From assembly GCA_003971905.1 (NCBI GenBank), contig RSEE01000081.1:248001-312000 (forward strand): a DNA stretch of 64,000 bases. The letters are read 5' to 3'. This stretch comes from Moniliella sp. 'wahieum'. Taxonomy: Eukaryota. Under the pieces are notes generated by a model. The model saw nothing but the letters and a program-made list of their open reading frames with translations, made no database searches and had not been told where the DNA came from. Position 1 is the stretch's first letter. Each line of letters opens with the position of its first letter. Positions 7,901-26,457 of this stretch are shown here, piece by piece. Position numbers and translations under genes: made by a program.

Positions 7901-8408
7901 GCTTGAATACCCCGCGGTGACTCGGGTGTTGCCGCGGGTTGGGGGAGTTGCGTTGTGGGCTGCGGTTGATGGGGCTTACTCTCTACAGCGGACGGGCGAT
8001 GTTTAGGAACGACAGCAGGGATGACATGGGTGGGTTCAAACCGTTTGGCGGTAAGCGTGAATTCGGGTTCTGGATAGGGTCAGGGCTGGTCAGTGACGAA
8101 CCGGGCACAAAGAGTGAAAACGTACTCGTTGGCGGGGGGATCGCGGGTAACTCTGCATCTGTAACGGGAGCGGCAGGGGCGTGGTTGACAGGCTCTTGCT
8201 CGTCCTGGTGCTTTGTCTCTGGGGTTGAATCGGTCTCGGGCGCAAGCTTAAGGAAAGCACTGCGCTTGCGGGGCTTGCCTTGTTGCTCATCGGACTTCTT
8301 GGGGGCCGGGGGCAAGCGGGAGGTGCGCCAGAGGGCATAGCCCACAGCCAGGGTGGAGACCCCGGCAACGAGGGTGAAGGCGAGCAGCGGCTTGTCCTGG
8401 ACCAGCAT
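4949..8408 (-). CDS. Large Pro/Ser/Thr/Glu-rich low-complexity protein with N-terminal membrane anchor; frameshifted, 3' end uncertain
   Basis: Chain of overlapping minus-strand ORFs (7983-8489, 7187-7711, 6600-7334, 6217-6618, 5547-5786). ATG at 8408 is followed by hydrophobic LLAFTLVAGVSTLAVGYALW and then basic residues. No family recognised. Confidence 0.5.
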
Positions 8409-9597
8409 TGTGGGCAAGGAGGGGGGGGGTGGTGGATGGGAGGGACGGGGGGGGGTGAAGGGCAGGGCGGGGTGGGTGCAGGTGTCCACGTGCGGAGGGT
8501 GACGGAGAGGAGGGGCGTGGGGCCAGCTGGGCGCTGTGCTCAGCGTTGGTCAGCGCACCCGACCGGCGGCAAGGCAGGCACAGGTAGCACAGGTAAGCAC
8601 CCGCACGCGGTGCTTCCGAAAAACGCTAATTGGACTCCTGGCCGCAGCCAGGGTCCCTGCCGGCGGATTGGATGCGCCCACAAGTCAGCCCATCGGCGCC
8701 ACACGGGTTACGTCATCATAGGTCACGCCTGCCGGCACGCACCAGCACGCACTGGCAGCCATGTGCCCTGCCGTCCGCTCGACGCAGGGGTGGTGCCACA
8801 CTCTGCCCACCGGCCCAGCGCCCCTCCGGCCCCACCCGAGGTGGGCCCACTCCAAATGTGGGGCCCCGCCCTTGCAGCTGCATCTGCATCAGCTTGATCC
8901 ACCCGACGCACGTGACATGCGACGCACACCGCACGTGTAAGCATTAATTGCCTCCCATCCGCAGCCACCCGCAGCAGAAGAGAGCCACCCACAGCCATCT
9001 ACCATTCACAAGTGCTCAGCCAGTGGGGACTGCGAAATCATTAATCACGTCTGTGCCCGCAACGTACAGCTAGCTCTTCTTCGGGCTCTTCTCACGTCTC
9101 GGTCGATCGATGTAGCTGGCGCATGATTCGTTTTGATACCATCTCTTCCCCGTTGGTCATTATACATTGCCATCCCTTTGAAGGCATTCCACAGACACCC
9201 CAGCGTCTCATTGTGCACTTGACAGCGATGTGCTGGTGCGTGGGAATACCCGCACCAAAGCCTCCCCATCTCACGCGCGACGCAATGTTCTCCTATAATA
9301 CTCATCAACACTGGGAGGGGCTCAGTGTAAGTCCACATGCTGATAGAGACAAACGCTGCCTTCGTTTTCTAGTCCGTATCATCTGCGTTAATTAAAAAGA
9401 AAGAGTCCTGTTTTGGCTCTGTAAGCAAAAAGAAATGCTTGGGACTCACAAAGACCATGCATGTCATAGACAATACGTATACGCCTGTTGCCACTCGTCC
9501 CTTGCCCGTGGTGGCGACGACTGGGGCAAAGTACTACTCGAGTCGTCCACAGATATGCACCTCTGCATAGAAGTTGGCCCGCGTGTAGGAGGATCTG

Positions 9598-11340
9598 AAT
9601 CAAACCCGCCCGGAGAACAGAGGGTGTGAAGAGGGATGCGACAATCAACAGCACCAGTGTCGGAAACAGAGCCGGGCCAGGTCCCACCACCATCTGCCTT
9701 GCTCCACTACTTGCCGCAGCCAGTTGACCCGGTGCGACGGGAGTCACCTCAATCAACGTGGACGTGCCCGATGGCCCAGCCGCCGTGGTTGCAGCAGCCG
9801 GGACAAGGATGATTGTTTGGGTCAACTCTGAGGTGGTCAATGAGCCTTGGTCCTGTACAGATAGGGAAATAGAAAAAAAGTATCATAGCCGTCAGTAAAG
9901 TTGCGCGGGCGCACTGGGTGAAAAGTGCAATGATGGTATTATGGACAAACGGACGGGGACTAAAAGGACAAGGAGAAAGAGAAAGAAAGAAAAGACGTAC
10001 GTTGGGCCCACAGCCGCTCCTGACTCCAAAACGGTACGGGTGGCGGTCAAGTCTTGCACAGCGACGATGGTTGCTGTAGTTGGGATGGCAGCAACGATGG
10101 CCGAGGCCGAGCCAGGGGCAGTAACGGTGGAAGTGGACGTGGACGTGAAGGTAAGTAGATGAGATTCTCCGTTCTCGGACTGAGTGGTGAAGATGGTCTG
10201 CACTGCCTCCGTCACCGACTCGGAGGGCAAAGCGATGGATACCAGTACCGCACCTGATGTGGGTGACGGCATAGAGAACTTGGACAGAGAGGAGTGGGGA
10301 GAAGAATTGGACGAGGCGGAGCGGGAAGAACTTGACGGAGTGGAGGCGGAAGAGAAAGAGTTCATAGAAGGAGATGGACTCGTGGAGGAAACCGAAACCG
10401 CGGTGGACGTAACGGCGCCTGAATGGGTAGTGTAGTGATCAGAAGTAGACGTGAATGAGATGGGGGCGCTACTGGACGTGAAGGGCGCTGAACTGGATGA
10501 GTTGTCAATGGGAGAAGCCAGGCTCGTTGTCGCAGTGGAAGTAGATGCGGCTGATGACGATGTTTTTGCGGAAGAGGCGTCTGAGATGGCCGTTGAGGCA
10601 GAAGCAAACGAGGAAGAGGAAGGTTCCGAAGACGTCAATGCCAGGGAGCTCGTATCAACCAACGAGGTCATTTCGGATAACGTGCTGGTTGCGGGGACAG
10701 TCGAGGGCAAGGGTTCATCGCTACTGGTTTGCTCTATCGAGGTAGTCGGCATATGCGTGCTGCTTGCCCCAGCAACGGTACTTGGGACAGCGGTGCTAGA
10801 CATGACAGTCGAGGCAACTGTAGGACAGATGAGAACAATTAGAACGGAAAACCTCGTAACGTTACATAGTCAACTCCATCAGCTGCAGCATGACCCTCAT
10901 ATTAGGTGCACAGGTCGTTGTTTGGGAGACTTCCCAAAGCATATAGGGGGCGGGTTGGGGAGCGTACCTGTATAAGCCGAGGATGTTGGGGATACCGCTG
11001 TTGTCGATGTCGATGGGGCAGAAGTAGAAGAAGCGTCAGAAGGTGTTGATTGTTCAAGGCTGCTGCTGCCACTGCTGTGGAAGGGAATGGCGCCACTAGC
11101 GGAAGAGTCGGGAAGAAATGGCTGATGGCAGAGCACCGCTTGAGGTAGGCGAGGGCAGTAGGGATGAGTCAATCGCCTGGGATGCCGTGTCAAGTGGCGG
11201 GGCGGACGTGCTGGACATTTAGCTTTTTGGGGTGGTGGCGCAACCAGAGGAGGGGCATAAACGACCCCCTCTGGATAGCCAGACTTATATATTCCCTGTA
11301 CAGTAGCTAATATAAAGAGGCTTGTGTATATAGCCACCGG
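9598..11340 (-). CDS. Ser/Thr-rich secreted, probably GPI-anchored cell-surface protein; introns ~10818-10967 and ~9853-10000; start codon unclear
   Basis: N-terminal hydrophobic AIYTSLFILATVQG, a long Ser/Thr-rich tract (ORF 9892-10803), and C-terminal small residues (AAASSGA) followed by hydrophobic LFPTLVLLIVASLF. GTACGC/GTACGT donors and CAG acceptors. Confidence 0.65.
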
Positions 11341-11960
11341 AAGATATGGTGGCGTATAGTGAGTGGTAACGCAGCGTGTTAGAGTGTGCCCGCCCGCCGC
11401 ACCCGCACCGCGCCAGTGCCTTCAGTGCCCGCCCGAGTGGGTCTGGCCGCCGGAACCAGGCCAGACCTCTGGCTCTCAGAACTCAGTCAAGTGGCCAGGG
11501 GCGGTTGCTGCGCAGTGGATTCATTAATCATTGTCCCTTAGTCGTACATGACAAGCTTCGCCTAGAATAACCTGCCACACACCATACCCGCTATTAGCCA
11601 CGCCCAGACCACGCTCAAGCAGAGACAGATTTCGTTAGTATATGTTATCTCTTCCCACGTAGTAAGCAGGCATACCCAACTATAGATCCCATCCCGCATT
11701 GCCCACGCCGGCACACGCCAAATTCCGACCCAGAATAAGACAGCCTGCACCACCTGCTTTGTGAGTCATGCATCAGGAGCGACCACAGCAGTGGCATCAA
11801 CCCAAAATATGGCGATGCAGATGTAGTGTGGGGAGATCTCGCACCAATCCAGCTTGCCTCCGTTCGTTCAAAACAACGAGAAAGGTCAGTAACAAGGAAC
11901 AAAGCATGTGGGGGACACGATTTGCAGTGGTCGCGGGAGAGGCGGTGCATGAGAAGCGAA

Positions 11961-12117
11961 CACCCTCAATCTCAATGCTAACGTCCAGGGGAAGACGGGG
12001 GCAACCTCAACGGCGGAGCGGGCAGGCTTGTGGCCTTCAAAAGCCTATAGGTAGCAGGAAAGACAACAGTTAGCAAGAGGAAGGGGACTAGGGAGAGAGA
12101 GCCACTCGACGACTTAC
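11961..12117 (-). pseudogene. Remnant of RidA paralogue (last exon plus preceding intron; exon 1 missing)
   Basis: Close match to 19165-19275 (encodes AFEGHKPARSAVEVA...LDVSIEIE). Intron signals GTAAGT (12117), GCTAAC and TAG (12045-47) are retained, but there is no exon 1 upstream. Confidence 0.75.
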
Positions 12118-12120
12118 CCA

Positions 12121-12713
12121 TGAGATGCTTCGGATATCATCCGCGGCCCGCCATGGTCGCATGGGCACATCTGTACAATGTTTTGCGCACATTGCACCCA
12201 GTCTTGGCAGAACCCTTCCTGCTGCGCCCGACACGCAGGGTCAGCGCCTTTGAGAGCATAGGCCGTGCATTAGTCTTTACCTCTCTGGAAAGTGCATCGC
12301 ATTCTGTTTATACCTGTCATGAGGCATTTGAGGCCTGCTTCCTTCTGTTGTATATAAGCAGCCATGTCTAAGGCTTGCTAGTATAACTGTGGTCATTGTC
12401 GACCAGCCTGTCTTTGGTCTCCCGACTACCCGTTCCTCTCTCGCCCTTTTACCTTTTCTAAGTACCACCTTTACGCTTACGAATGTACGACTTTTACGTC
12501 GAGTACGCTGCAAGCCGCGCGTGACTCTGATCAGTACTGGCATTAGTAACGCTTGCTCGTCTTTAGGACGCTGTCTGTTCCCGGCTACTATACAGAGTAC
12601 CGAGTGTAATAGTAACGCTGATGTGAGGAACAGAGTACGGTGCTCCTGGACCCCTTCAACTGGTCTGACGACCTACGTACGCGCTCCTACCTCGGAGGGT
12701 CTGGGACCTGTTA
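12121..12713 (+). mobile_element. LTR-like dispersed repeat, inverted diverged copy of ~17483-18120
   Basis: Reverse complement aligns by eye with 17580-18120 (e.g. ACCTACGTACGCG..CTCCTAC; TATATAAGCAGCC). TATA box at 12351 is followed by a pyrimidine tract. No target-site duplication seen, so the LTR call is an inference. Confidence 0.55.
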
Positions 12714-12828
12714 GTACTAGGTTCGATAGCATCATCATGTAGTGAGGGTATAGACATTCAGACAAGAACGCGGGCATGCAAGATAAAGCAGCGATCCCAC
12801 TGTTGCATGATGTGCCTGCAACGCCCTG

Positions 12829-15090
12829 TCAGCATCCTCCACATACGCCACCGCCGAAACCACCGGCTCCGCCACCACCTCCACAGGAACCACCACCTCC
12901 CCCACAGGCACCTCCGGCGCTCCCACCCCACCAGCCGCGGAGCACGAGGAAAACCCGCCCACGGCACTGCAGCCACTCGCACCACAGGAGCCTGCGGCCA
13001 CAGCGCCAACAGGTTCCAGCCACGCACGCTCCCAAACTTCCGGCGCCATGGCGACACACGCGGGGTTGCTTGCATACGTGCCCGAGTTGGAACCGGCAGT
13101 GATAGATGGATCTGGTAGTACGGAGCGTAGTAGGCATGTAGACGGGATAGACTCCCCACGCCATTGTGGGCGCTTCCGAATTGGCTTGAGCACGTTTCTC
13201 GTCTACATTGCCCGTGAGAAGCCCGCGTTTTGTGCAGTCGCCGTTGTGCCGCTTCGGCCTTGGAGACGAGACGACGATGCCGGACTGCCTCGCCACGTAC
13301 CACTGCCTCGTCCCCTTCGGTGGGCACGGAATTGTGGGCAGAAATGTGGGCGTTGCGCTCGGGATGGTTGTGGTCGATGTTGGGGTTAGAATAGAGGGCG
13401 TCCGCGTTGACCCGTGCCTGGGAGGCAGTGGACGAGGAAAACAAAAGCGCCGGTGACGCACGGTTGGTTTGGCTTTCGCGTACCGCCTCGCAGTACCAGC
13501 ACGTACACTCTGAGTACGGCTGGCCATTGGTCAAGTTGGCATAGCGCTTGGTTGTGAGCTCAAATGCATCGCTCAACCGACCCGAGGCGACTTTATCATC
13601 ATGGTTGATCATCCGCTTCATGTGATGCACCGTGTAGCAGTAATACCGTGCCGGGCTGAGTTGGTGGGTGTGCCAAGCCAAGTCCACGTCCAATGTCGGC
13701 ACCGCCATGGAACCAGGGTATTTCTTCATGATTTCGAGAAAGACGGAATACTTGGCAATCAACCGTGCCATGGTGTGCTCCAGTGCCGGCGAATGCAACC
13801 AATCAATCTCATCCATCTTGCGCACAAACGTGCCTTGGCGCAACACTGCCCCCACCAAGTCCAACCCAATGAGACGAGTTTTCCCAGTAACGTGACATCA
13901 TTGCCCGAATCCCCAACGCCGGGCTATTGCCACCTCCCGTTTGACCGGCTGCGAACGTCCAACCGCTCGTACGATCGTCCGGTTAGAAAAGATCACCTCC
14001 ATTTGCTCCCGCACCTCCAACATGGTCAGGTACGGATTGGCGTCAAAGTTCACCTTTCTCTGCAGTACCTCCAGTCCGCGTACCAACAGATGGCTCGCAT
14101 ACGATTGGCTAATCACCGGCAGCGGATTTTGGGGGGACGGCCATCGTAGGAAAGAATGGTACCGGGCATGGCCACATCCTTGCCTACCAGTTGGCTATAG
14201 TCGTACCGGAACTTGCCACACGCAGCGTATCGTGCGTGATGTGAAACTTGCACGAGGTACAGTCGGTGGCTAAATTGGTATCGGTAAACCCGTCCTTTGC
14301 GTCAAACCATGGCTTGGTCAGCTCGCCCAGGGGGCCACCAGTGGCCCATGGAATCTCTTCCTCCCGCTTGCAACGGGGACACTTGATCTTCTTCCCACCC
14401 TGGTCGTCTTGGTTTCGCCAGGCACGGCCGGTGGCTCGTTGAAACGAGTCGGCAGCCTCGGCAGAGGGAAGGTAATCGAGCGAGTCATTGATGCACTCAT
14501 CAATCAGGGCCCAGGGGAAGCCTACATTCCACACCCGCATGTGACCTGTACGAAGACAGTCTTCGAGGTAGTTGGTGGGGTTGAGGCAAAATGCGTGCCA
14601 GACCATCAGTACATCCAGCGGGGGCAGATTTTCCCTGCTCCCAGCGGTGGGTCCGAAGGCGACTTGGTGTTCTTCATCGCATCAGCCAACCTGTGGTTGA
14701 TTCAACCAGGTCAACGGTGATCGCTGGGCCTGAAGATGGCAAACATTCTTCCAAAATTGCTCAAACCGATCGGCGGCGCGTGCCACATAAACTGACCAGC
14801 GCTTTTCCCGCATCAGGGCCAGACCCTTGCTTTGATCTTCCTCCTTCTGGAATTGGCTCAACACGTCCTCGTCACGCAGGCCAAACAGACCATCAATATG
14901 GGCAATCGAATCGCGCAAATCGGCAAAGACAGCAAGCAAGCGCAAATGAGCGACACACTCGTCGGACGTGACAGTCTGTGTGGTGTCGCTGGCAGCGATG
15001 GGGGAAGGTGCGCTGATAGGGGGGTAGGCTGGTGGGGCCTCGCCTAGGCTGGGGGCGAGGGGGGGGGAACACCTTCTTGTCGGGCAACAT
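12829..15090 (-). CDS. Glycine-rich domain-containing protein (GRDP/DUF1399 family), paralogue 1; frameshifted
   Basis: ECVAHLRLLAVFADLR, WSVYVARAADRF, LPPLDVLMVWHAFCLNP..YLEDCLR, DLVGAVLRQGTFVRKM..IDWLHSP, VPTLDVDLAWHTHQLSP, INHDD, YSECTCWYCE, and a Gly/Cys-rich tail. Confidence 0.88.
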
Positions 15091-16443
15091 ATTGCAGCAG
15101 CAGTGTAGTGAGCCTGGTATAGAGGCGAGTAGCGAGATGGGCTATGCGGGTTGTTGAAGATGGTGAAGGGGAAGGGCAGGGCGGCGTGTGTGTGGGCGGG
15201 GGGGTGTTGGTGGCAGAGAGGGAGACACCCACCGAATTTATGCGAGCACGGAGGGCTGGAGGAGGGATGCAATCGGAGTTGGATGGCCGGCGCCAAGCTT
15301 GGCAACAACGTACAAGAGAGAGTTGGGAGGAGATCACTTAGTTGGGACAGTATCTCTTGTGCTCGGCATGTGTGCACACGTTTCGTGGCACGGGTGATGC
15401 AGTGATGGGCGCAGTCTGATATGGCGTTGCAGGCGAGTGGTTTCCAGCAGGGGTCGAATGAGTGGGCTCACCAAATTAATCGATCTTCATTGCTTCGTAG
15501 TCCTTGTGAGCAAGGGACATAATAGCGCGACGAGCGGCCTTGGTGACCGGTGACCCCGATGACCGGTGACTGGATGAGACATGGGGTGTGAGACAACAGA
15601 GCGCGAAGTGAACTGGGGACCGGTGATCGTTGATCGTTGAGGCCGGCCTGAGGCCTGAGTCCCTGAGTACTCAGACTGAGTAGATCAGAGCCTGGGGGCC
15701 TCACCGACCTCGCACTGGCATGGCCCAACGCCCATCCGCCACCCGACCAAAGCTTCGTCGACATATGGTCGATGATCGATGATTGATGACGTCGATGAGA
15801 TGACGGATCGATGACGTCTGCCGGAAAAACAGTCATAGAACTGGGCGCAGGGGTAGCGGCTGTATTTGGATCCGGTCTGCGGCCGCGAGCAAGTGGGCGC
15901 GGGAGGGCCCTGGTGGCCGGTGACCTCACCCTCCCCCGCTGCAGGAACTAAGGAGCACTAGTAGGCGAACAGCGCGAGTCGGATGTCTGAGGCCAGCCTT
16001 ACGGCACTGTGTGCCAGCTCCGGCAACACGTGGTACACGACAAGTGCTTTTTTGCTGGAAATGTTCGACTGTGTCGTTAAAACGCGTTGCGGCGTTCGCG
16101 TTACGCGTACATGATGCATGATACCAGCACATCCGCTGTATCCCTCGTCCAGGAGCAGCTGCGACTGCTGCGCGTCGTTAGTACGTGTCTCTGTTCGCTC
16201 CGCCTTGCGGGGTAGACAGGTCGCTGTGGGCCGTGCGGGCCGTACAACGCCGCACATGCCACAGCTGATGTACTACCCCGGTGTAACGTATTCAACGTTC
16301 AACGTTTACCCGGTGTGGTCCTCCTCGCGCCCAATTTGCACTCTGCTAGAGCAGGCTACGCGCTGAGGTTCAGCCCATCGCGTATCCCATGTCAGAACAC
16401 ATCAGCCGAACGAGGAAGTGCTATCGGCTGATATTCTTGGCGC

Positions 16444-16568
16444 CTTCGCAGCCTTCGCAACCTTCGCAACCTTCGCAATCTTCGCAATCTTCGCAGTCTT
16501 CGCAGTCTTCGCAGCCTTCGCAGCCTTCGCTTCGCAGTCTTCGCAGCCACAGTCTTCGCAGCCTTCGC
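16444..16568. repeat. 9-bp tandem repeat (CTTCGCARY)n, ~9 contiguous units plus degenerate ones
   Basis: Seen directly: cttcgcagc cttcgcaac cttcgcaac cttcgcaat cttcgcaat cttcgcagt... Confidence 0.9.
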
Positions 16569-17482
16569 TTGCTTCTGTTGGAGGGTAGTGCTAGGGTTCA
16601 GGGTTCCCCAGCACGGCCCTCAGTGGATCGGTGACGCTCGCTTAGCCGGCCGGGCGGAAGAGCTCCGCTTGCAGGGCGCGCACACCCTGCTCGTTCCATC
16701 TCCCGTCTCTCTTTCCTGCCTCCTCCCTTCAGGCGTTTCTTGAAGACTTGTGTGGCTCACCACTTTGCCTTCACACCTTGTCTGAAGGGCTTTGCAGCTG
16801 ATCCATAGGATCGCGAGTGCTCCCAAGTCGCACTCTATCGCAGCTTCGTCTGCTTCGCTTTGTCAACATCTATGCCAGTGCGATGGGGCTTAGACAGGAG
16901 GGGTTACCAAAAGGGTCAGCCAACAGTCATCATCCTCGATCAGTGGGGATCCTTTATCCCACCTTCCATTCTCGTCCCTTCCCGCCTTTCCTTTCCAACT
17001 CCTGACCGTTTCCAGCCAACAATTCATTGAGTACAGGCAACCTCTCGTTCCACTTAGCTGTCTCGTCTTCTTCATCCAACCTCGTCCTCAAGCTTTCCAT
17101 CCGCCCCAGTCGGGTGAGCCTTCCTTCAGCCGCGTCGATTCCCAGTACCACAGCATATCTCGTGGGTTCCTTTCACAGCCATGCCTCGACAGCCGCCTTG
17201 CCCAGCCTCAGCCCTCTGGCAGTGCTTGTCCTCCGCTGCATCTACCCGTCCCTAAGCCCCGGAAGCTTCAGACACTTTACTACCTTCGAGCCGCCGGCGC
17301 ATACGCAGCCTCCTTGCTCCACCACTCCGCCTTGTTCCAGGTTACTCTTTGCACCACCGATCCCCTTTTAAGGTAGTGGAGGGACGCATCGACGTCATAG
17401 GTCATGGGCGAGCCCCGAGACGGAGCCCGGCCCCGGAATTTGAGGGTGAAAGCCCTTGGACATGGCATTAGAGAGCTACAAA

Positions 17483-18120
17483 TGTTAGGTCCTGCTTCAG
17501 ATTCTGGTTGAACCGAGCGGGTGTAGAGGCAATGGGAGACCCTCTAGTTTGGGTGGCTGCCTCCGTGCAAAGGCCGCAGTTCAGACCTCCGAGGAGTAGG
17601 AGCCGCGTACGTAGGTCGTAAGACTAATTGAAAGGGGTCCAGCTGTACAGGACCTTCGACGTTGCTCTGTTCCTCGCGGCGTTACCACACTCGGTACGCA
17701 GTAGTATAGGCGGGAACAGATAGAGTCTTAAAGAAGAGCAAGCGACTGATAGTAACCGTGGCTTGCAGAGTGGTCGACGGAAGTCGTAAATTCGTAAGCG
17801 TAAGGGTGAAGCTTGAAGAGGAAGCTTGAAGAGGGAAGTCGGGGGGAAGACGGGGTTGGGCGGGGAGGATCACCGCCAGCAATAAGCCTCAGACCGGCTG
17901 CTTATATACCGTAAATCAGAACAGGCATCAACGTTCAAACAGAAGGAAGGGGATCTACAGTAGTAAGAGGTAAAGGGCGGCCTGTGCTGCCCAGACTGCG
18001 ATCCGGTGGGCCGCAGTCGATGTGGGGTTCTGTCAAGATCGGGCGCCGCAGATACGAAGCTCCGTGCCATTAAGTCAGGTCCTCTCCTGGCCCTCTGCGA
18101 AAATATCCGTGGCAAGTTAT
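17483..18120 (-). mobile_element. LTR-like dispersed repeat (inverted partner of 12121-12713)
   Basis: On the minus strand it ends GGACCTAACA (terminal CA at 17483), matching GGACCT at the end of the 12.7 kb copy. TATATAAGCAGCC at ~17896-17908. The other boundary is uncertain. Confidence 0.55.
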
Positions 18121-18234
18121 CTGTGCTGACTCTTACTCGCAAGTGTCGCGGGGCTGGCGTGGATTCGATGAGATCGAGTTCTACGAAATGCGGGGATCGG
18201 CGTCTGGAGATGACCGGAGCGCCCCATAACACCA

Positions 18235-18790
18235 TACCTTTTTGAAGGCATTCATTTCCAACAAAGACACCCCAACGATTCATCGTGCGCTTGACAGCAA
18301 TGTGCTGATGCGTGTTCGAATACCCGCACCAAAGCCTCCCTATCTCACGCGCGACGTAATACGTCCCTTCTATGATAACTCATCAACACTGGAAAGGGCT
18401 CAGTGTAAGTCCACATGCTAATAGTACTAGAGACAAACACTGCCTTCGTTTTCTAGTCCGTATCATACGACTCAGCGTATAGCAGTTGGAGATGTTAATG
18501 AAAGGCGGTAAACGGGAGCAGAAGGAATCAAAAGATGAGTCCGTGTTTTCCGAGTGCAGGAGGATCTGAATCAAAACACCCGGAGAACAAACGGGTGGTG
18601 AAGAGGGATGCGACATTCAACAGCAGCAGACGGTGTCGGAAACAGAGCCGGGCCTTGGCTCTGTACAGATAGCGAATAGAAAAAAAGTATCATCATCGTC
18701 AGTAAAGTTGCGCGGGCGCTGGGGTGAAAAGTGCAGTGATGGTATGGACAAACTGACGGGGCAAAAATGACAAGACAAGGACAAAGACAA
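18235..18790 (-). pseudogene. Internally deleted remnant of the GPI-type Ser/Thr protein gene (3' flank, part of last exon, part of intron)
   Basis: Blocks match 9168-9382, 9585-9678 and 9843-9975 in order, then jump to the homologue of ~11630. Confidence 0.75.
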
Positions 18791-19128
18791 CCTTTCGTAT
18801 ATGTCCTCCCACGTAGTAAGCAGGCATACCCATTATAGATCCCATCCCGCTTTGCCCACGGCCGCACACACCAAATTCCGACCCAGAGTAAGACAGCCTA
18901 CCCACCTCTTTTGTGAATCATGCATCAGGAGCAACCACAGGAGTGGCATCAATGTATCAACCCAAAATATGGCGATACAGATGTAGTATGGGGGGATCGT
19001 ACCAATCCAGCTTGCCGCCGTTCGTCCAAACCAAACGAGAAAGGTCAGGAACAAGGATAAAGCATGTGGGGAATACGGTGGTGTGGTCGGGGAGAGAGGC
19101 GGTGCATGAGAAGCGTTCGCCTGAACGC

Positions 19129-19648
19129 TTACGCACTGCCCGGGGCCTTGACCACCGCAGCGACACACTCAATCTCAATGCTAACGTCCAGGGGAACGGG
19201 CAACCTCGACGGCGGAGCGGGCAGGCTTGTGGCCTTCAAAAGCCTATAGGCAGCAGGAAGACAACAGTCAGCGAAGGAAGGGGGGAGGCAAATTAAAGGG
19301 CATATGAGGTCATATGGTCATACGAAGGCAGAAACGTACTGCTCGTATACAGCATTGATCCGCTTAAAGTGTTCCATGTTCTTGATGAACACTGTCGTCT
19401 TGAGCACCGACGACTTTTCTGCCCCAGCAGCCTTCAGGACAGCGAACAGGTTCTTGAACACCTGCTCCGTCTGTTTCTCAATCACCCCCGGCGCCGAAGC
19501 ATCGCCCTCGCCACCCTCAACCAACTTGCCCGTCTTCGGGTCGAGGGGATGCAGCCACATAAGCAGTCTGCGTGGCCTCATGCACAATGACCTGCGAATA
19601 GGGTCCCAAAGCGGCAGGAGCGTCGGGGGTGCTGTAAGCGGTAGGCAT
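19129..19648 (-). CDS. RidA/YjgF/YER057c/UK114 family enamine/imine deaminase (Mmf1/Hmf1-like); intron ~19244-19339
   Basis: MPTAYSTPDAPAALGPYSQ..., PLDPKTGKLVEG, QTEQVFKNLFAVLKAAGA...VLKTTVFIKNMEHFKRINAVY, then exon 2 AFEGHKPARSAVEVA..PLDVSIEIECVA. Confidence 0.92.
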
Positions 19649-20023
19649 GTTGGGAAACAGCGTGGAGAGCAAGGCAACAGTGGTGGTGGTTGTAAACACG
19701 GAGATCTGTCATGCCCAGAATGGCTGAGCGCCACGTCCGTGCGGCGGACGCGCGTTGCACCGAACCACATGACTCACTAGTCTTACCGGTAACCGTTACC
19801 GGTAACCTGGGCTCTGAGCGGACCCTTTGAAACGCACACGCCCAACGCGAGTAAACACTTCAAAGGGATGCGGCAGGAGAAAAGTACAAGACCGGTGGTC
19901 CGGTGATGAGCGGTGCAAAATCTCTATCTATTGGGTGTCCAGAAGAGGAGGTTTTCAAGACTTGGGCAGAAAAAAAGATAATAATCAACCACATTGAAAA
20001 AAATTAGGACGCCCATGTCGGGT

Positions 20024-20104
20024 CGAACGACGCAGGGGTCGAACCTGCAACCTCCTGATTACAACTAGTCGTAGTCAGACGCGCTACCATTGCGCCAGCC
20101 GTCC
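20024..20104 (-). tRNA. tRNA-Arg(ACG) with ~9-nt intron
   Basis: Reverse complement folds as GGACGGC/GTCGTTC acceptor, GCGC D-stem, TCTGA-CTACGA..-TCAGG anticodon arm and GCAGG-TTCGACC-CCTGC T arm. An oligo-T terminator follows (A run at 19997-20003). Confidence 0.93.
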
Positions 20105-20701
20105 TTGGTGCGTAAGTCCACCCCACACTACAAGTAACAAAATGTTACCACCGCATGCATCATATCATTTCCGGAACTGTGAACACTATTGCGCCTATCA
20201 GACTCTTTCCTTCGACGTGTATTGTTTCTCGTGCCAACCCATTCAAGGCTGAAAGATGTGACTCGCCAGCAGACCAGGATCCTCTGCCTCCCTGATTTGC
20301 TTCCAAATGGAGTGATGAGAATGGATACGGATCTTGTCAAGTGTAGAGACTTGTGTGCGTGAGCGAAGAGATGAATCATCTCCACTGAAGGAAAGAGAAG
20401 CTTCCAACACTTACATATCCTGTTGATCATCTTGGTAGCGTAGTAGAGCCCGCGCGTTGCCTTGGCCGGAGGAAGAATGACTCTTGAGTGCAACTACCAA
20501 CTTTCCAAATGTCAAGGTGTTTCCCGAAGCCTAAAACCCTCCATACACTTTCTTTTCACCGTTTGCACCATTTCTGAGAGCTGTTTGTATATAGTGGAGG
20601 CCATTTATGGTGTCTCCATCAGTATAGAGATATACAGAGGAGGAAGGATGGGAACAACAAGGTCAAAAGCAGCATGAGCATTCAACAATTGAGGGTGTGG
20701 G

Positions 20702-23700
20702 TAGTAGGTTCGATAGCATCATCATGTGGTTCACATCATTCATGTGGAGAGGGTATAGACATTCAGACAAGAACGCGGGCACACAAGAGAAAGCAGCAGC
20801 GCTTCCACTGTGTACCTCGCAGGCCCTCTCAGCATCCTCCACATCCACCACCGCCAACACCGCATCCGCCAGCACCTCCTCCACAGGCACCTGCTCCACC
20901 TGCCACGTTCCCACACCCACCAGCCGCGGAGCACGAGGAAAACCCGCCCACAGCACTGCAGCCACTCGCACCACAGGAGCCTGCGGCCACAGCTCCGCCA
21001 CAGGTCCCAGCCACGCACGCTCCCAAACTTCCGGCGCCCATGGCAACACACGCGGGGTTGCCTGCGTACATTCCCGAGTTGGAACCTGCAGTGATACATG
21101 GATCTGGGTAGTAAGGAGCGTAGTAGGGCATGTAGACAGGATAGACTCCCCACGCCATAGTCGCCGCTTCATCATTGGCCAGAGCACGCTTCTCGTTGCA
21201 TCTCTAGTGAGCAGACCGCGTTTGTGCAGTCGCCGTTGTGCCGCTTCGGCCTTAGAGACGAGACGACGATGCCGGACTGCTTCACCACGTACCGCTGCCT
21301 GGTCCCCTTCGGTGGACACGGCATTGTGGGCAGAAATGTGGGCGTTGCGCTCGGGATGGTTGTGGTCGATGTTGGGGTTAGAATGGAGGGCGTCCGCGTT
21401 GACCCGTGCCTGGAGGCAGTGGACGAGGAAAACAAAAGCGCTGGTGACACACGGCTTGTTTGGCTTTCACGCACCGCCTCACAGTACCAGCACGTACACT
21501 CTGAGTACGGCTGGCCATTGGTCAAGTTGGCATAGCGCTTGGATGTGAGCTCAAATGCATCGCTCAACCGACCCGAGGCGACTTTATCATCATGGTTGAT
21601 CATCCGCTTCATGTGATGCACCGTGTAGCAGTAATACCGTGCCGGGCTGAGTTGGTGGGTGTGCCAAGCCAAGTCCACGTCCAATGTCGGCACCGCCATG
21701 GAACCAGGGTATTTCTTCATGATTTCGAGAAGATGGAATACTTGGCAATCAACCGCGCCATCGTCTGCTCCAGTGCCGGCGAATGCAACCAATCAATCTC
21801 ATCCATCTTGCACACAAACGTGCCTTGGCGCAACACTGCCCCCACCAAGTCCAACCCAAACGGAGACGAATTTTCCCAGTACCGTGACATCATTGCCCGA
21901 ACCCCCACACGCCGGGCAACTGCCACCTCTCGTTGACCGGTTTGGAACCTCCAACCACTCGTACGATCATCCGGTTGGCACACGTCAGCTCCATCTGCTC
22001 CCGCACCTCCAGCATGGTCAGGTACGGATTGGCGTCAAAGTTCACCTTTTTCTGCAGTACCTCCAGCCCGTGTAACAACAGATGGCTCGCGTACGATTGG
22101 CTCATCACCGTCAAAGGATGGTGGGGCGGACGACCGTCGTAGGAAAGAATGGTACGGGCATAGCCACATCCGCGCTTACCAGTTGGCTATAGTCATACCG
22201 GAACTTGGCTACACGCAGCGTATCGTGCGTGATGTGAAATTGCACGAGGTACAGTCGGTGGTTAGGTTGGTATCGGTAAACCCGTCCTTTGCGTCAAACC
22301 ATGGCTTGGTCAGCTCGCCCAGGGGGCCACCAGTGGCCCATGGAATCTCTTCCTCCCGCTTGCAACGGGGACACTTGATCTTCTTCCCACCCTGGTCGTC
22401 TTGGTTTCGCCAGGCACGGCCGGTGGCCCGGGGGAACGCGTCGGCAGCCTCAGCAGAGGGAAGGTAATCGAGCGATCGTTGATGCACTCATCAATCAGGG
22501 CCCAGGGAAGCCTACATTCCACACCCGCATGTGGCCTGTACGAAGACAGTCTTCGAGGTAGTTGGTGGGTTGAGGCAAATGCGTGCCAGACCATCAGTAC
22601 ATCCAGCGGGGGCAGATTTTCCCTGCTCCACAGCGGTGGGTCCGAAGGCGACTTGGTGTTCTTCATCGCATCAGCCAAACCTGTGGTTGAGTCAACCAGG
22701 TCAACAGTGATCGCTGGGCCTGAGGATGGCAAGCAGTTCTTCCAAAATTGCTCAAACCGATCGGCGGCGCGTGCCACATAAACGGACCAGCGCTTTTCCC
22801 GCATCAGGGCCAGACCCTTGCTTTTATCCTCCTCCTTCGGGAATTGGCTCAACACGTCCTCGTCACGCAGGCCAAACAGACCATCAATATGGGCAATCGA
22901 ATCGCGCAAATCGGCAAAGACAGCGAGCAAGCGCAAATGAGCGACACACTCGTCGGACGTGACAGTCTGTGTGGTGTCGCTGGCAGCGATGTGGGGGAAG
23001 GTGCGCTGATAGGGGGTGTAGGCTGGTGGGGCCTCGCCTAGGCTGGGGGGCGAGGGGGGGGGGAACACCTTCTTGTCGAACGGCATATTGCAGCAGCAGT
23101 GTAGTGAACCTAGTGTAGAGGCGAGTGACGAGATGCGGTATGCGAGGTTGCTGAAGATGGTGAAGGGGAAGGGCAGGTTGGTGTGTATGGGGGGGTGTTG
23201 GTAGCAGAGGGGAGAGAAGAGCAGCGAGGCACCCCCGAATTTATGCGAGCACGGAGGGCTGCAGGAGCGATGCCGTCGGAGTTGAATGGCCGGCGCCAAG
23301 CATGGCAACGTACAAGAGACAGCTGGGAGGAGATCACTTCGTTGGGACAGTATCTCTCTGTGCTCGACATGTGCACACGTTGCGTGTTACGGGTGATGTA
23401 GTGACGGGCGCGGCCTGAGATCTCTGAGATCTGATATGGCGTTCTAGGTGAGTGGTGAGTGGTGAGTTGCTTCCAGCAGGGGGGGGTCGAACGAGTGCGC
23501 TCACCAAATTAATCGATCTTCATAGCTTCATAGTCCTTGGGCAGGAGGGAGCAGTGTGCGTTTGGAGAGACACCAGCGCGACGAGTGCCGGACGTGACCG
23601 GTGACCCTGTGCGACCTGTGACCAGCGACCGGTGACTGGGTGAGACCTGGGGCCTGGGCTGTGAGACAGCAGAGCGCGAGGTGAACCGGGGACCGGTGAG

Positions 23701-24626
23701 GCCTGAGTCCTCCTGAAGCCTGAGGCCTGACCGGTGACGGCAGTGCTCGGTGCCTGAGACTGTGAGTACGATGTCCTGCCTATAGTACTCACTGAACTGA
23801 GTATTGGGACTGAGTACACTGAGTGTGTACTGAGTATCCGAGTAGCAGAGACGCAAGCATACGATACGGTGCACTCGCTTACCTCGCCCATCTCCCTCTC
23901 TTCAGGTTTCTGGCCTCAGGGCCTCAAGGCCTCAGGGGCCTCATCGACACCGCACTGGCATCGCCCAACGCGCACCCGCTACCCGACCACAGCTTCGTCG
24001 ACATGTGGTCGATGATCGATGATTGATGACGTCGATGACGTCTACCGGGAAAACAGTCATAGGACCGGGCCGGGGGGCTGTATCTTGGTCCGGTCTGTGG
24101 CCGCGAGCAAGTGGGCGCGGGAGAGCCCGGGTGGCCGGTGACCTCACCCTCCCCGCCGCAGGAACGAAGGAGCGCGAGCGCGAGGAAGCCGAATAGCGCG
24201 AATCGGATATCTGAGGCCAGCTCTACCCCCTGTGCCAGCTCCAGCGACAGATATGTGCTTTTTGCTGAATGTTAGACTGCGTCGTTAACACGCGTTGGGG
24301 CGTTCGCGTTACAGGCTACATGAGCATGATATCAGCACATCTGCTGCATCCCTCTTTCAGTACGTGTCTCTGTCCGCTCCGCCTTGCGGGGTAGACAGGT
24401 CGCTGTAAACATTGCGGGCCGTGGAATGCCGAACGCCGCGCATGGCACACAGCTGATGCACTACACCCGGGTGTTACTATAAACGCATTCAAATTTTACC
24501 CGATGCGGTTCCCCTCGCGCCTAACTTCCCCCTGCTAGAGCAGGCTACGCCCTGAGGTTCAGCGCTGAGGCTCAGCGCTCAGCCTGAGCCCGCTCCCGTG
24601 ACCCATGTCAGAACATATCAGCCGAA
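20702..24626 (+). repeat. Direct diverged duplicate of ~12714-16410 (GRDP gene plus upstream region)
   Basis: Colinear similarity from TAGGTTCGATAGCATCATCATGT to CCCATGTCAGAACAYATCAGCCGAA in both copies. Confidence 0.95.
20829..23087 (-). CDS. Glycine-rich domain-containing protein (GRDP/DUF1399 family), paralogue 2; frameshifted
   Basis: Same motifs as 12829-15090. Starts MPFDKKVFPPP and ends ...GGGGCGGC*. Confidence 0.88.
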
Positions 24627-26362
24627 TACGCGCCCCTGGCCAATTGGGTTCAATTCGCATTCGATCCGTTCGTTTCCGGATCAAGTTTCCCCTAGGTAGA
24701 GTAACCTGCAGAGCAACCTCTACACCTGTAGCATGTGGGTGAACATAATGAACGTTGATGCAGTACGTTGATGCATAATGTGCAGTCAAGGGAGCGTCTC
24801 ACATGACGTCACGCGTCACGCCTTACACGTTAGTACGCACGATTCTCGTCGTGCTGGTGGACACGGCCACTGCAGGCAGGAACAGGCCTCCAGGCGTCGG
24901 TCACAACATATGCCCCCCCCCCCCCCCCCCCCCGCCCAAACAAAGCAGAAGCTTGAATTTGAAGCCTCAGTTTCACCTTATGAATGAAGTCCACCGGTTA
25001 TTCTATACCACCGTTCTTATTTCCCCTCTCTCGGGCCTCCGACGACCATCAAGAAAGGGAAAAGAAAGAGGAAGCAATCCTGCACAAGGCTGGGTCCAAA
25101 GCTATGATGGAATGCTTGAATGTGTGCCTGCGGGCATGTTGGAAATCACGGTACAAGACAGTGTGGACTTGGAACATATGGTGGGCGGTGATATATGATA
25201 GACGATATATATATGGAAGAACGGTGTGGACTATAATGTACGGGAAACTGAACTCCCCATCTCTCACAGATCGAGGGGGGTATAGGGTCAACATGATAGG
25301 CTCTTGATGAGAAAAAAGGGATATGTATTCTCAAAGAAGCGGTGGAGCGCCCACCTCATCATCACCAGGGAATCCAACAAAAATGAGAGGAAGAGAAAAG
25401 AGTTGAATCCCTGCCAATTGCATTCTATCTTTCCCTTTGGACCTTCGTTGTTTACCCAAAAAAGGATGGAGAAGCATCGGTACCAAAAGCTGCCACAGTG
25501 GTGGGACGAAGCGGCCCTCTAGAGTTAGGATATATACCGACATCTTCTTTTTCAAGCATTTTAAGGTGCGAAGAGTTCGTATCGCGCCCAAAAAGCACAG
25601 TGGTACTGCGTTACAACAGATGAGATGCACTCCCTATTTACCAGTTTCGAAATGGGAAACGCCCTTCCCCTTCCAAGAAAACGATGATATGTTGTGCAAA
25701 TTATCGTCACATCTACAAGAGCACACCCTCCGAGAGCAAAACAACTTCCGGCGGTGGCACCGTGGAAATGAACGGGAAGACAAAAGTAAGGGCGACCCTC
25801 TGTTGTCTATACTGCGTTGTTTTGAATTCCCTCTGTTGATAACAGGAGAATGGTGTACTACTACTACTACCATGTTCTCATCTGAGGGTCACCTATACAC
25901 AGAGAGTTGTATTATATATAGTGCCCTATTCCTTATCATCTCTCAAGCTATAGTTGCCCCATCTCTCACTATTCTCAGCTATAAAAAAGCTGATGAGGCC
26001 AAAACGGCCTCGCCGACAGGCCAGAACGGCCTATGGGTTTCTTCCATACTGGATGAAGCTTGAAAGTGAGAATGGGTGTGGAACAGCGTGCTGCGCTTTT
26101 GATGTGATGGGCGACTGTTGATGCTGATCTATACAACGCACAAACGTGATTGTCCACTATACTTTTAGTTTTGTCCATTTGCGAAATGGCACAAAACAAT
26201 CTTTTTGCAGTCTATGGTTCCTTCTCTCGACTTTAATTAAGGCAAGAATCGGAACAACGGACGCAGTATGCATGCCGCCGATGAACAATGTCACTGCCAA
26301 CTTGGTGAAGTCACGCACAGCTCGATCCAAAGAAGGAAAGTCGCCTTTATGGGCAAAAGAGG

Positions 26363-26457
26363 TGCTTCAAAGGGGAATCGAACCCCTGTCACATCGATGT
26401 CTTAAGAGCAACAACGCCCTGCTGGCAACGATGTAGTATACCACTAACCCTTGAAGC
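26363..26457 (-). tRNA. tRNA-Gly(GCC) with ~25-nt intron; conserved T8 missing
   Basis: GCTTCAA/TTGAAGC acceptor, CATCG-TTGCCA..-CGATG anticodon arm, AGGGG-TTCGATT-CCCCT T arm. The D arm only fits if one base (T8) is restored. Confidence 0.85.

What the first reader, a model, noticed from the sequence alone, without database searches (positions are those of the whole stretch)
23410..24600. Duplicated promoters show the heptamer arrays changed after duplication
Seen: the two GRDP upstream regions align but differ at heptamer sites. Copy 2 has CTGAGATCTCTGAGATCTGAT (23415) where copy 1 has TCTGAT (~15415). It has (GTGAGTG)n at 23448 vs one GCGAGTG, an extended TGAGTAC field at 23760-23845 vs a short one at ~15655-15680, and TCAGCGCTGAGGCTCAGCGCTCAGCCTGAG (24559) vs TCAGCCC (16370). 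Inference: arrays are gained, expanded or lost at seed sites on a short timescale, which gives an internal test of the process; direction cannot be fixed without an outgroup.
Basis: partly seen in the sequence, partly recalled or inferred. Interest (0 to 1): 0.7.

Follow-up and report, generated by a model that had tools for sequence, protein, structure and literature searches.

The report
Repeat turnover in duplicated upstream DNA
Two copies of a duplicated stretch of fungal DNA, each lying next to a decayed gene, differ mostly by short repeats and small deletions, so this genome's odd 7-base repeats are unstable, but the comparison cannot tell gains from losses.

Summary
The label "heptamer arrays" fits only part of them. 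(GGTGAGT)3 is a true heptamer array. 23415 is a 9-mer doublet that holds one 7-nt step. The "TGAGTAC field" is irregular and built from inverted repeats. 24559 is a 13-mer / 6-7-nt mix.

The setting is a roughly 7-kb tandem segmental duplication in a smut-related basidiomycete. Both GRDP genes are pseudogenes with independent frameshifts, so these are not working promoters. Substitution divergence is 5.7% in the gene bodies and 10.3% upstream.

Upstream indels are not enriched for multiples of 7 (5 of 54). Six of 23 indels of 4 nt or more are tandem copies of adjacent sequence, against 1.6 expected. The largest copy-2-only segments are unique sequence, so they are probably deletions in copy 1.

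Two sites, perhaps three, pair a single xyTNA 5-mer in one copy with xyTNA-y'x'-xyTNA in the other. The same 5+2 form is in excess across the window.

No outgroup could be obtained, so direction stays open.

This scan already reported the TNA-palindrome heptamer rule on other pieces of this genome. This finding adds paralogue state pairs to that, not a new phenomenon.

The parts
9190..16410 (.). Copy 1 of the tandem segmental duplication
   Evidence: blastn of the window against itself. It holds about 1.66 kb (9987-11645) that copy 2 lacks.
18262..24626 (.). Copy 2 of the tandem segmental duplication
   Evidence: It is separated from copy 1 by 1.85 kb of unique DNA (16411-18261).
12760..15090 (-). 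GRDP-like pseudogene, copy 1
   Evidence: PF07173 hit, E = 4e-14. tblastn with ascomycete GRDPs shows 2 frame changes. There are 5 in-frame stops in the homologous frame, and the ATG is out of frame.
20740..23086 (-). GRDP-like pseudogene, copy 2
   Evidence: PF07173 hit. A 258-aa N-terminal ORF is followed by at least 4 frame changes at places where copy 1 is continuous.
15091..16410 (.). Upstream region of copy 1 (1320 bp)
   Evidence: Alignments. It has 8 TNA-palindrome-TNA motifs and 97 copy-1-only bases.
23087..24626 (.). Upstream region of copy 2 (1540 bp)
   Evidence: It has 9 motifs and 317 copy-2-only bases.
15415..15700 (.). Indel-rich TGA-phased zone in copy 1
   Evidence: 251 gap columns against 280 aligned columns, with identity 0.896. 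Token parse.
23414..23945 (.). Indel-rich TGA-phased zone in copy 2
23415..23434 (+). (CTGAGATCT)2 containing the 12-mer TCTGA-GA-TCTGA (23423-23434). The counterpart in copy 1 is a single TCTGA at 15415-15419.
   Evidence: The 7-nt step has the 5+2 form, and the remaining 9 nt are a plain tandem copy.
23447..23467 (+). (GGTGAGT)3.0, private to copy 2. Copy 1 has GGCGAGTGGT at 15432-15441.
   Evidence: lag 7, 0.86. It does not follow the TNA-palindrome rule, so it is plain slippage or microhomology duplication.
15624..15640 (+). (TGATCGT)2.4, private to copy 1
23760..23845 (+). 'TGAGTAC field' of copy 2. It consists of irregularly spaced ACTGAGTA copies and two hairpins, and includes a 19-nt insertion, with GTAC duplicated, in the centre of the palindrome that copy 1 has as CTGAGTACTCAG (15662-15673).
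23846..23925 (+). Largely unique sequence present only in copy 2
   Evidence: It is part of the 97-nt gap. No second copy exists in the window. It is best read as a deletion in copy 1 (inference).
24552..24589 (+). 27-nt copy-2-only block containing GCTCAGC-GCTCAGC (24570-24583), the 10-bp palindrome TCAGCGCTGA (24559) and a 13-mer x2.2. Copy 1 has a single TCAGC at 16370-16374.
16291..16306 (+). (TTCAACG)2.3 in copy 1. Copy 2 (24480-24498) has the same length but reads TAAACGCATTCAAATTTTA.
15769..15783 (+). (TCGATGA)2.1, shared intact with copy 2 (24009-24023). A 16-nt duplication follows it only in copy 1 (15792-15807).
15542..15555 (+). (GGTGACC)2.0. The motif TGACCGGTGA is shared with copy 2 (23595). 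The degenerate array that follows is about 15 nt (two decayed units) longer in copy 2.

Best explanation
These are two paralogous stretches of essentially neutral non-coding DNA inside a tandem segmental duplication whose GRDP genes have both decayed.

Since the duplication they have diverged by about 10% in substitutions and by three kinds of length change:
(a) Tandem duplication or collapse of short units of 6-16 nt, most often 7 nt, by slippage or microhomology-mediated duplication at repeats already phased on TGA/TCA.
(b) A few 7-nt steps of a special form, in which the 5 nt xyTNA are duplicated with 2 inverted nt (y'x') between the copies. This is the same step that is over-represented across the window and that builds this genome's palindromic heptamers.
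(c) Ordinary deletions of unique sequence, mainly in copy 1.

Nothing suggests that the repeats regulate anything here. Shown: the alignment, the event classes, the pseudogene state and the 5+2 excess. Inferred: neutrality, the mechanisms, and the direction of every change.
For: Duplication and divergence:
-. Gene bodies differ at 134 of 2338 aligned columns (5.7%). Upstream regions differ at 126 of 1224 (10.3%). Transition/transversion counts are 76/58 and 72/54.

Both genes are broken, at different places:
-.
- There are 27 one-base indels, and 14 of them are not in homopolymers of 3 nt or more.

Indels:
- Upstream indels are larger than gene-body indels (54 vs 36; Mann-Whitney p = 2.6e-6).
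- They are concentrated in the TGA-phased zone, where substitution identity is unchanged.
- 6 of 23 upstream indels of 4 nt or more are at least 80% tandem copies, against 1.63 expected. Their lags are 7, 7, 8, 6, 13 and 2.

Private perfect repeats occur in both copies.

5+2 state pairs:
- TCTGA (15415) vs TCTGA-GA-TCTGA (23423).
- TCAGC (16370) vs TCAGC-GC-TCAGC (24572).
- Under one alignment, CCTGA vs CCTGA-GG-CCTGA.

Window-wide support for the 5+2 step:
- There are 105 TNA-palindrome-TNA motifs, against 9.06 in local shuffles.
- Period-7 runs show an excess that starts sharply at array length 12-13, not at 11 or 14.
- Single-step motifs with two matching flank bases are one-sided 14 times (8 + 6) and two-sided once.
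Against: - There is no outgroup, so no change is polarised.
- Every 5+2 pair can also be read as a deletion between 5-nt direct repeats, or as an exact 7-nt duplication plus one substitution (TCTGATA to TCTGAGA).
- The alignment inside the TGA-phased zone is ambiguous, because everything there is TGA plus 4 nt. Event counts therefore depend on gap placement.
- Large indels also occur in the downstream paralogous non-coding DNA, which has no heptamers (gaps of 46, 61 and 168 nt). The size contrast with the gene body may therefore only reflect past selection on the coding sequence.
- The two shared arrays have stayed perfect in both copies despite 10% divergence. This weakens the argument that perfect private arrays must be young.
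- The numbers are small: 2-3 state pairs.
Confidence: 0.62

Rival explanations
1. Loss only. The ancestor already carried all the repeats. Copy 1, and to a lesser degree copy 2, merely lost units and unique DNA by deletion between direct repeats. Nothing was gained after the duplication.
For: - Copy 2 is 220 bp longer (317 copy-2-only bases vs 97 copy-1-only).
- The largest copy-2-only pieces are unique sequence, which slippage cannot create.
- The extra units of the copy-2 GTGACCG array are degenerate, so they look old.
- The 16-nt difference at 23414 is bounded by CTGA repeats.
- The copy-1 form of the ACTGAGTA field can be derived from the copy-2 form by 2-3 deletions between repeats, whereas the reverse needs at least 4 duplications (my parse).
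Against: - Copy 1 also has private perfect arrays, so any losses would have to run both ways.
- Four private perfect arrays of 16-21 nt would each have had to escape substitution at about 5% per lineage. By my arithmetic the joint chance is about 0.03, assuming no homogenisation.
- The window-wide excess of 12-13-nt 5+2 forms shows that a generating process exists.
Confidence: 0.15
2. Transposon scars. The private TNA-palindrome repeats are footprints left by repeated insertion and excision of a cut-and-paste element that forms hairpins on flanking DNA. The retained target duplication supplies the 5 nt and the two P nucleotides supply the rest. Such elements would prefer open upstream DNA.
For: - The 5+2 junctions at 23423 and 24572 have the expected form. 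The 2 nt between the copies are the reverse complement of the outer 2 nt of the duplicated 5-mer.
- The flank match is one-sided window-wide.
- hAT, Transib, MULE and RAG form hairpins on flanking DNA, and end joining leaves footprints (PMC5499845, passages read).
- Earlier notes of this scan reached the same reading on other pieces of the genome.
- Motifs are absent from the gene bodies.
Against: - Neither copy carries an element at any differing site.
- No convincing terminal inverted repeats bound the copy-2-only DNA.
- No transposase domain was found among the 75 ORFs scanned in the window.
- hAT duplications are 8 bp and MULE duplications 8-10 bp (PMC5499845), not 5 bp.
- About half of the repeat differences ((GGTGAGT)3, (TGATCGT)2.4, CCTGGGS x2, and the 9-, 13- and 16-mers) do not have this form.
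Confidence: 0.18
3. Regulatory divergence. The arrays are clusters of transcription-factor sites (TGA/TCA half-sites) that were remodelled after duplication to change expression of the two GRDP paralogues.
For: - The arrays lie upstream of the genes.
- Blocks of near-identity lie between the variable zones.
- TGACGTC-like motifs occur at 15788 and 24028.
- Unstable promoter repeats are known to tune expression in yeast (recalled, not checked here).
Against: - Both downstream genes are dead.
- All 16 four-base palindromes are used window-wide, which does not fit any one factor.
- Substitution identity is the same in repeat and non-repeat zones.
Confidence: 0.03
4. Artefact. The two 'copies' are haplotypes or mis-joined contigs, or the repeat lengths are assembly errors.
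For: - 13 of the 27 one-base indels in the gene body lie in homopolymers of 3 nt or more.
- No reads could be examined (none was listed).
Against: - The copies have different flanks and a 1.85-kb unique spacer.
- Other genes in the window are intact (459-aa and 815-aa ORFs).
- Differences of 7-97 nt are not typical base-calling errors.
Confidence: 0.02

Closest known systems
Microhomology-mediated tandem duplication / replication slippage as the source and sink of short tandem repeats (bioRxiv 10.64898/2026.02.28.708716, abstract read; PMC8639346 and PMC13167724, search listing only)
   Same: Single-copy segments become tandem copies and collapse again. The process behaves neutrally and is depleted from coding sequence. 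Here 6 of 23 upstream indels of 4 nt or more are tandem copies. Once made, a 12-mer xyTNA-y'x'-xyTNA is itself a pair of 5-nt microhomology arms that could expand to 19 or 26 nt, and those array lengths are seen in the window.
   Different: It does not explain the preference for period 7 or the TNA-plus-palindrome rule. It also does not explain junctions where only 5 of the 7 nt are a direct copy and the other 2 are inverted.
Excision footprints with palindromic (P) nucleotides of hairpin-forming cut-and-paste elements (hAT, Transib, MULE) and V(D)J coding joints (PMC5499845, passages read; the Coen hairpin model and P-nucleotide literature are recalled)
   Same: A retained short direct duplication, plus a couple of nucleotides that are the reverse complement of the adjoining flank.
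   Different: No element and no occupied site were seen. The duplication is 5 nt ending in TNA, rather than 8 nt (hAT) or 8-10 nt (MULE). The events stack in tandem. Several of the repeat differences here lack the form altogether.
Unstable tandem repeats in yeast promoters that tune expression (recalled; not read here)
   Same: Short repeats upstream of genes whose copy number differs between related sequences.
   Different: The genes here are pseudogenes, there are no expression data, and many unrelated repeat units are involved.
Centre-break instability of DNA palindromes (recalled; not read here)
   Same: Copy 2 has a 19-nt insertion, with GTAC duplicated, exactly at the centre of the palindrome that copy 1 keeps as CTGAGTACTCAG.
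   Different: This is a single case and its direction is unknown.

Membership tests
Tandem-repeat turnover by slippage / microhomology-mediated tandem duplication | The inserted bases are a tandem copy of adjacent sequence in the longer allele | tested here: inconclusive
   6 of 23 upstream indels of 4 nt or more meet this at 80% identity or better, against 1.63 expected. The other 17 do not.
   5 of 54 indels (p = 0.90), and 5 of 23 for indels of 4 nt or more (p = 0.22). Composite gaps such as 16 = 7 + 9 blur this test.
Tandem-repeat turnover by slippage / microhomology-mediated tandem duplication | Microhomology arms flank the unit in the short allele | tested here: inconclusive
   Seen by eye at GGCGAGTGGT (15432) and at the CTGA repeats (23416-23433). 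Not seen at the CCTGGGS site. No systematic count was made.
Hairpin / P-nucleotide excision footprints (hAT, Transib, MULE type) | A retained target-site duplication with flank-templated inverted nucleotides at the junction | tested here: met
   Met at 23423-34 and 24572-83, and at 15649 under one alignment. Window-wide, one-sided flank matches outnumber two-sided ones 14 to 1.
Hairpin / P-nucleotide excision footprints (hAT, Transib, MULE type) | An element of the family, or an allele with the element in place, at such a site | tested here: not met
   Neither paralogue has an element at a differing site. There are no convincing terminal inverted repeats. No transposase Pfam domain was found in the 75 ORFs scanned. 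The rest of the genome could not be searched.
Hairpin / P-nucleotide excision footprints (hAT, Transib, MULE type) | Duplication length typical of the superfamily | tested here: not met
   It is 5 nt here. hAT gives 8 bp and MULE 8-10 bp (PMC5499845). The 5 bp of Transib is recalled, not checked.
Functional promoter repeat elements | An intact downstream gene and conservation of the elements between paralogues | tested here: not met
   Both genes are frameshifted. Only 2 of about 14 motif sites are intact in both copies.
GRDP-like proteins (Pfam PF07173), for the flanking genes | A domain hit above Pfam's threshold and a continuous reading frame | tested here: not met
   The domain hit is met (53.8 and 31.9 bits against a cut-off of 22.7). 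A continuous frame is not met in either copy. They are GRDP pseudogenes.

The most novel reading that the evidence does not exclude
The paralogue pair preserves substrate and product of an undescribed, still recent mutational process. At an xyTNA site, 7 nt are inserted: the 5-mer is duplicated and 2 flank-templated inverted nucleotides are placed between the copies. This creates a 7-bp odd palindrome that later expands. It would be the work of an unidentified hairpin-forming nuclease or transposase acting on upstream DNA of this smut-related lineage.
Probability: 0.3. Interest if true: 0.7.

Novelty: new variant of a known kind. Interest (0 to 1): 0.38.

Why it matters
If the palindromic heptamers of this genome come from a specific DNA-breaking or copying process, paralogous neutral DNA is the cheapest place to catch its elementary step.

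This pair gives two, perhaps three, before/after state pairs of the 5+2 form. It also shows that ordinary tandem duplication and deletion act on the same tracts, and it gives a rough turnover rate: most motif sites are not shared at about 10% divergence.

It also sets limits. The repeats here sit beside dead genes, so this locus gives no support for a regulatory role. Without an outgroup the comparison cannot separate birth from death.

Tried and rejected
Outgroup and polymorphism:
- Public sequencing runs: none was listed.
- Earlier scan notes by sequence and by place: nothing.
- An exact 32-mer from the best-conserved upstream block in metagenome contigs: 0 matches.
- The GRDP N-terminus in metagenome contigs: 136 pattern matches, 0 relatives.
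- No whole genome is held for this window.
- Named relatives of a window protein are only about 50% identical, so known genomes are too distant to serve.

Other tests:
- Multiples of 7: not enriched.
- RIP-like mutation bias: not seen. Transition/transversion counts are 76/58 and 72/54.
- Copy-2-only DNA as a MITE or transposon: only the inverted orientation of TGAGGCC / GGCCTCA units was found, with no convincing ends.
- Rfam and tRNA scans: nothing in either upstream region.
- DNA hairpin potential: only the TGAGTAC fields stand out (z = -3.66 and -2.68). The other repeat sites lie within the range of shuffles.
- Downstream paralogous non-coding DNA as a second sample: one shared motif and no private heptamer events.
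- Literature: searches for 'heptanucleotide repeats' / Ustilaginomycotina and for excision footprint, tandem duplication, palindromic, fungus and transposon listed no paper on such repeats. Only listings were seen, and supplements were not consulted.
Full report
**What is there**

The window looks like a basidiomycete related to the smut fungi. A 459-aa amino-acid transporter ORF has its best named matches in Ustilago, Melanopsichium, Sporisorium, Moesziomyces, Testicularia, Violaceomyces, Tilletiaria and Exobasidium, all at only about 50% identity.

blastn of the window against itself shows a tandem segmental duplication. Copy 1 runs from about 9190 to 16410 and copy 2 from about 18262 to 24626, with 1.85 kb of unique DNA between them.

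Each copy carries a minus-strand GRDP-like gene (PF07173). Its ATG lies at 15090 in copy 1 and at 23086 in copy 2. The regions in the finding are the DNA upstream of these genes: 15091-16410 (1320 bp) and 23087-24626 (1540 bp).

**The genes are dead**

Full-length homologues are ascomycete proteins of about 700-800 aa at 35-40% identity. This matches the 2.3-kb gene bodies without any need for introns.

tblastn with three of these homologues shows several frame changes in copy 2 at places where copy 1 is continuous, and the reverse also holds. Copy 1 has five in-frame stops in the homologous frame, and its ATG is out of frame. Copy 2 is open for 258 codons and then breaks.

The two gene bodies differ by 36 indels. 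Twenty-seven of these are 1 nt long, and 14 of those are not in homopolymers of 3 nt or more. Other genes in the window are intact, so this is decay and not a poor assembly. "Promoters" is therefore a misnomer. These are upstream regions of two independently decaying pseudogenes, and this makes them a fair sample of near-neutral change.

**Checking the observation**

All four named differences are present.
- 23415-32 is (CTGAGATCT)2, a 9-mer doublet. The difference from copy 1 is 16 nt.
- 23447-67 is a perfect (GGTGAGT)3, against GGCGAGTGGT in copy 1. This is 14 nt, a genuine heptamer expansion or contraction.
- The "TGAGTAC field" is real as a count: TGAGTA occurs 4 times in copy 2 and twice in copy 1. 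It is not a tandem array, however. The ACTGAGTA copies sit 13, 9 and 11 nt apart, and the stretch folds as two hairpins (z = -3.66).
- The 27-nt block at 24563 is a mix of a 13-mer x2.2, (GCTCAGC)2 and the 10-bp palindrome TCAGCGCTGA.

The underlying 7-nt phasing of TGA/TCA is real in both upstream regions. Pairs at distance 7 number 10 and 12, with 6 and 8 at distance 14, and only 1-7 at the other distances. The gene bodies show no such peak.

In a global alignment of 12700-16420 against 20704-24640 (3302 matches, 260 mismatches), the results are as follows.
- The upstream part has 54 indels and the gene bodies have 36. The upstream indels are larger (Mann-Whitney p = 2.6e-6).
- Lengths are multiples of 7 in 5 of 54 cases (p = 0.90), and in 5 of 23 cases for indels of 4 nt or more (p = 0.22). 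The prediction "multiples of 7" is not met. Composite gaps (16 = 7 + 9, and 15 is close to 14 + 1) blur it.
- Six of the 23 indels of 4 nt or more are at least 80% tandem copies of neighbouring sequence, at lags 7, 7, 8, 6, 13 and 2. Random segments of the same lengths give 1.63. The other 17 are not tandem copies.
- Indels are not randomly placed. The zone 15415-15700 has 251 gap columns against 280 aligned columns, while substitution identity is about 0.90 in all three zones.
- The contrast with the gene body should not be over-read. The downstream paralogous non-coding DNA, which has no heptamer arrays, also has gaps of 46, 61 and 168 nt.

**Turnover of the special motifs**

Earlier notes of this scan, made on other pieces of the same genome, describe a rule: T-N-A plus a 4-base palindrome, i.e. 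(xy-TNA-y'x')n, with the palindrome templated by the flank. I tested that rule here.
- The window has 105 TNA-palindrome-TNA motifs, against 9.06 in local shuffles. All 16 palindromes are used. Forty-five of the motifs lie in 34-39 kb.
- Period-7 runs show an excess that begins sharply at array lengths of 12 and 13 nt: 97 and 56, where the decay seen at other periods predicts roughly 60 and 18. There is no excess at 11 nt.
- Among single-step motifs with exactly two matching flank bases, the match is one-sided in 14 cases (8 + 6) and split one-and-one in a single case.
- This fits an elementary product xyTNA-y'x'-xyTNA (5 nt duplicated plus 2 nt inverted) and does not fit an exact 7-nt tandem copy.

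In the paralogues, copy 1 has 8 such motifs, copy 2 has 9, and the gene bodies have none. They sort as follows.
- Two are intact in both copies: GGTGACC and TCGATGA.
- Three are recognisable but degraded in copy 2 by a point change or a 1-nt indel: 15560, 16112 and 16292.
- The private copy-2 motifs at 23425 and 24572 face a single seed in copy 1. TCTGA (15415) faces TCTGA-GA-TCTGA, and TCAGC (16370) faces TCAGC-GC-TCAGC.
- Under one of several equally good alignments, copy 1 has CCTGA-GG-CCTGA where copy 2 has one CCTGA.

Other private repeats do not obey the rule and look like plain tandem duplication. These are (GGTGAGT)3, (TGATCGT)2.4, CCTGGGG/CCTGGGC, and the 9-, 13- and 16-mers.

**Direction**

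No outgroup could be obtained.

Internal hints point both ways. For loss in copy 1:
- Copy 2 is 220 bp longer.
- Its largest private pieces (about 23846-23925) are unique sequence that slippage cannot make.
- The extra units of its GTGACCG array are degenerate.
- The 16-nt difference at 23414 is bounded by CTGA repeats.
- The copy-1 form of the ACTGAGTA field follows from the copy-2 form by 2-3 deletions between repeats.

For gains:
- Both copies have private perfect arrays.
- Four such arrays of 16-21 nt would have had to escape substitution at about 5% per lineage. By my arithmetic the joint chance is about 0.03.
- That argument is weakened because the two shared arrays are also still perfect in both copies.

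Each 5+2 pair can equally be read as an insertion, as a deletion between 5-nt repeats, or as an exact 7-nt duplication plus one substitution.

**Mechanism**

The best reading is neutral length turnover by three processes acting on the same tracts:
- Microhomology-mediated tandem duplication or slippage and its reversal. The phenomenon is described in bioRxiv 10.64898/2026.02.28.708716 (abstract read).
- A minority of 5+2 steps.
- Plain deletions.

The 5+2 junction has the form of a retained short target duplication with two P nucleotides. That form is expected from transposases and RAG, which make hairpins on flanking DNA (PMC5499845, passages read). However, no element, occupied site, terminal repeat or transposase domain was found here, and the duplication length does not match hAT or MULE.

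There is no transition bias of the RIP kind. There is no RNA family or tRNA in either upstream region.

**Verdict**

The paralogue comparison shows that these repeat tracts are unstable and supplies two or three state pairs of the unusual 5+2 form. It fails the multiples-of-7 test. It shows deletions of ordinary sequence alongside the repeat changes. It cannot separate gain from loss.

The general heptamer rule had already been reported by this scan on other DNA of this genome, so this finding adds supporting detail and not a new kind of feature.

Noticed in passing
window 34000-38900: A roughly 5-kb ORF-poor stretch holds 45 of the window's 105 TNA-palindrome-TNA motifs and most of the perfect heptamer arrays (for example TGAGTAC x3.7, GTTCAAC x4.3, CATGATG x4.1).
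   Followed up: partly
window 12760-15090 and 20740-23086: The best homologues of the GRDP pseudogenes are all ascomycete proteins at 35-40% identity. The neighbouring transporter's best named hits, by contrast, are Ustilaginomycotina. This may reflect horizontal acquisition or loss in relatives.
   Followed up: no
window 23772-23790 vs 15662-15673: Copy 2 has a 19-nt insertion (15 new nt plus a second GTAC) exactly at the centre of the perfect 12-bp palindrome CTGAGTACTCAG that copy 1 keeps. This looks like a centre break repaired with filler.
   Followed up: partly
window 16112-16121 vs 24318-24328: Copy 1 reads CATGA-TG-CATGA and copy 2 reads CATGA-G-CATGA. A 1-nt difference inside the inverted dinucleotide destroys the TGCA palindrome.
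   Followed up: no
window 16292-16308 vs 24482-24498: The tracts have the same length but different palindromes: TCA-ACGT-TCA-ACGT-TTA in copy 1 against TCA-AATT-TTA in copy 2. The adjacent change CG to AT keeps the spacer palindromic.
   Followed up: no
window 16401-16568: At the outer edge of copy 1 there is a hairpin (ATCAGCCGA ... TCGGCTGAT), followed by about 15 units of GCCTTCGCA-like 9-mers (TRF 16442-16568). Neither is present after copy 2.
   Followed up: no
window 9987-11645: About 1.66 kb is present only in copy 1, where copy 2 has 12 nt at 18788-18799. There is no Pfam hit and no obvious terminal repeats, and GAC-type microhomology lies at both edges.
   Followed up: partly
window 19283-20734: A copy-2-only segment carries an endoribonuclease L-PSP domain fragment (19321-19773, minus strand) and a tRNA-like gene (20024-20104, minus strand, anticodon not called). 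A second tRNA hit lies at 26363-26457.
   Followed up: no
window 2701-3426 and 4499-8549: There is a weak amino-acid-transporter fragment and a chain of overlapping minus-strand ORFs in shifting frames. These suggest further decayed genes in the first third of the window.
   Followed up: no
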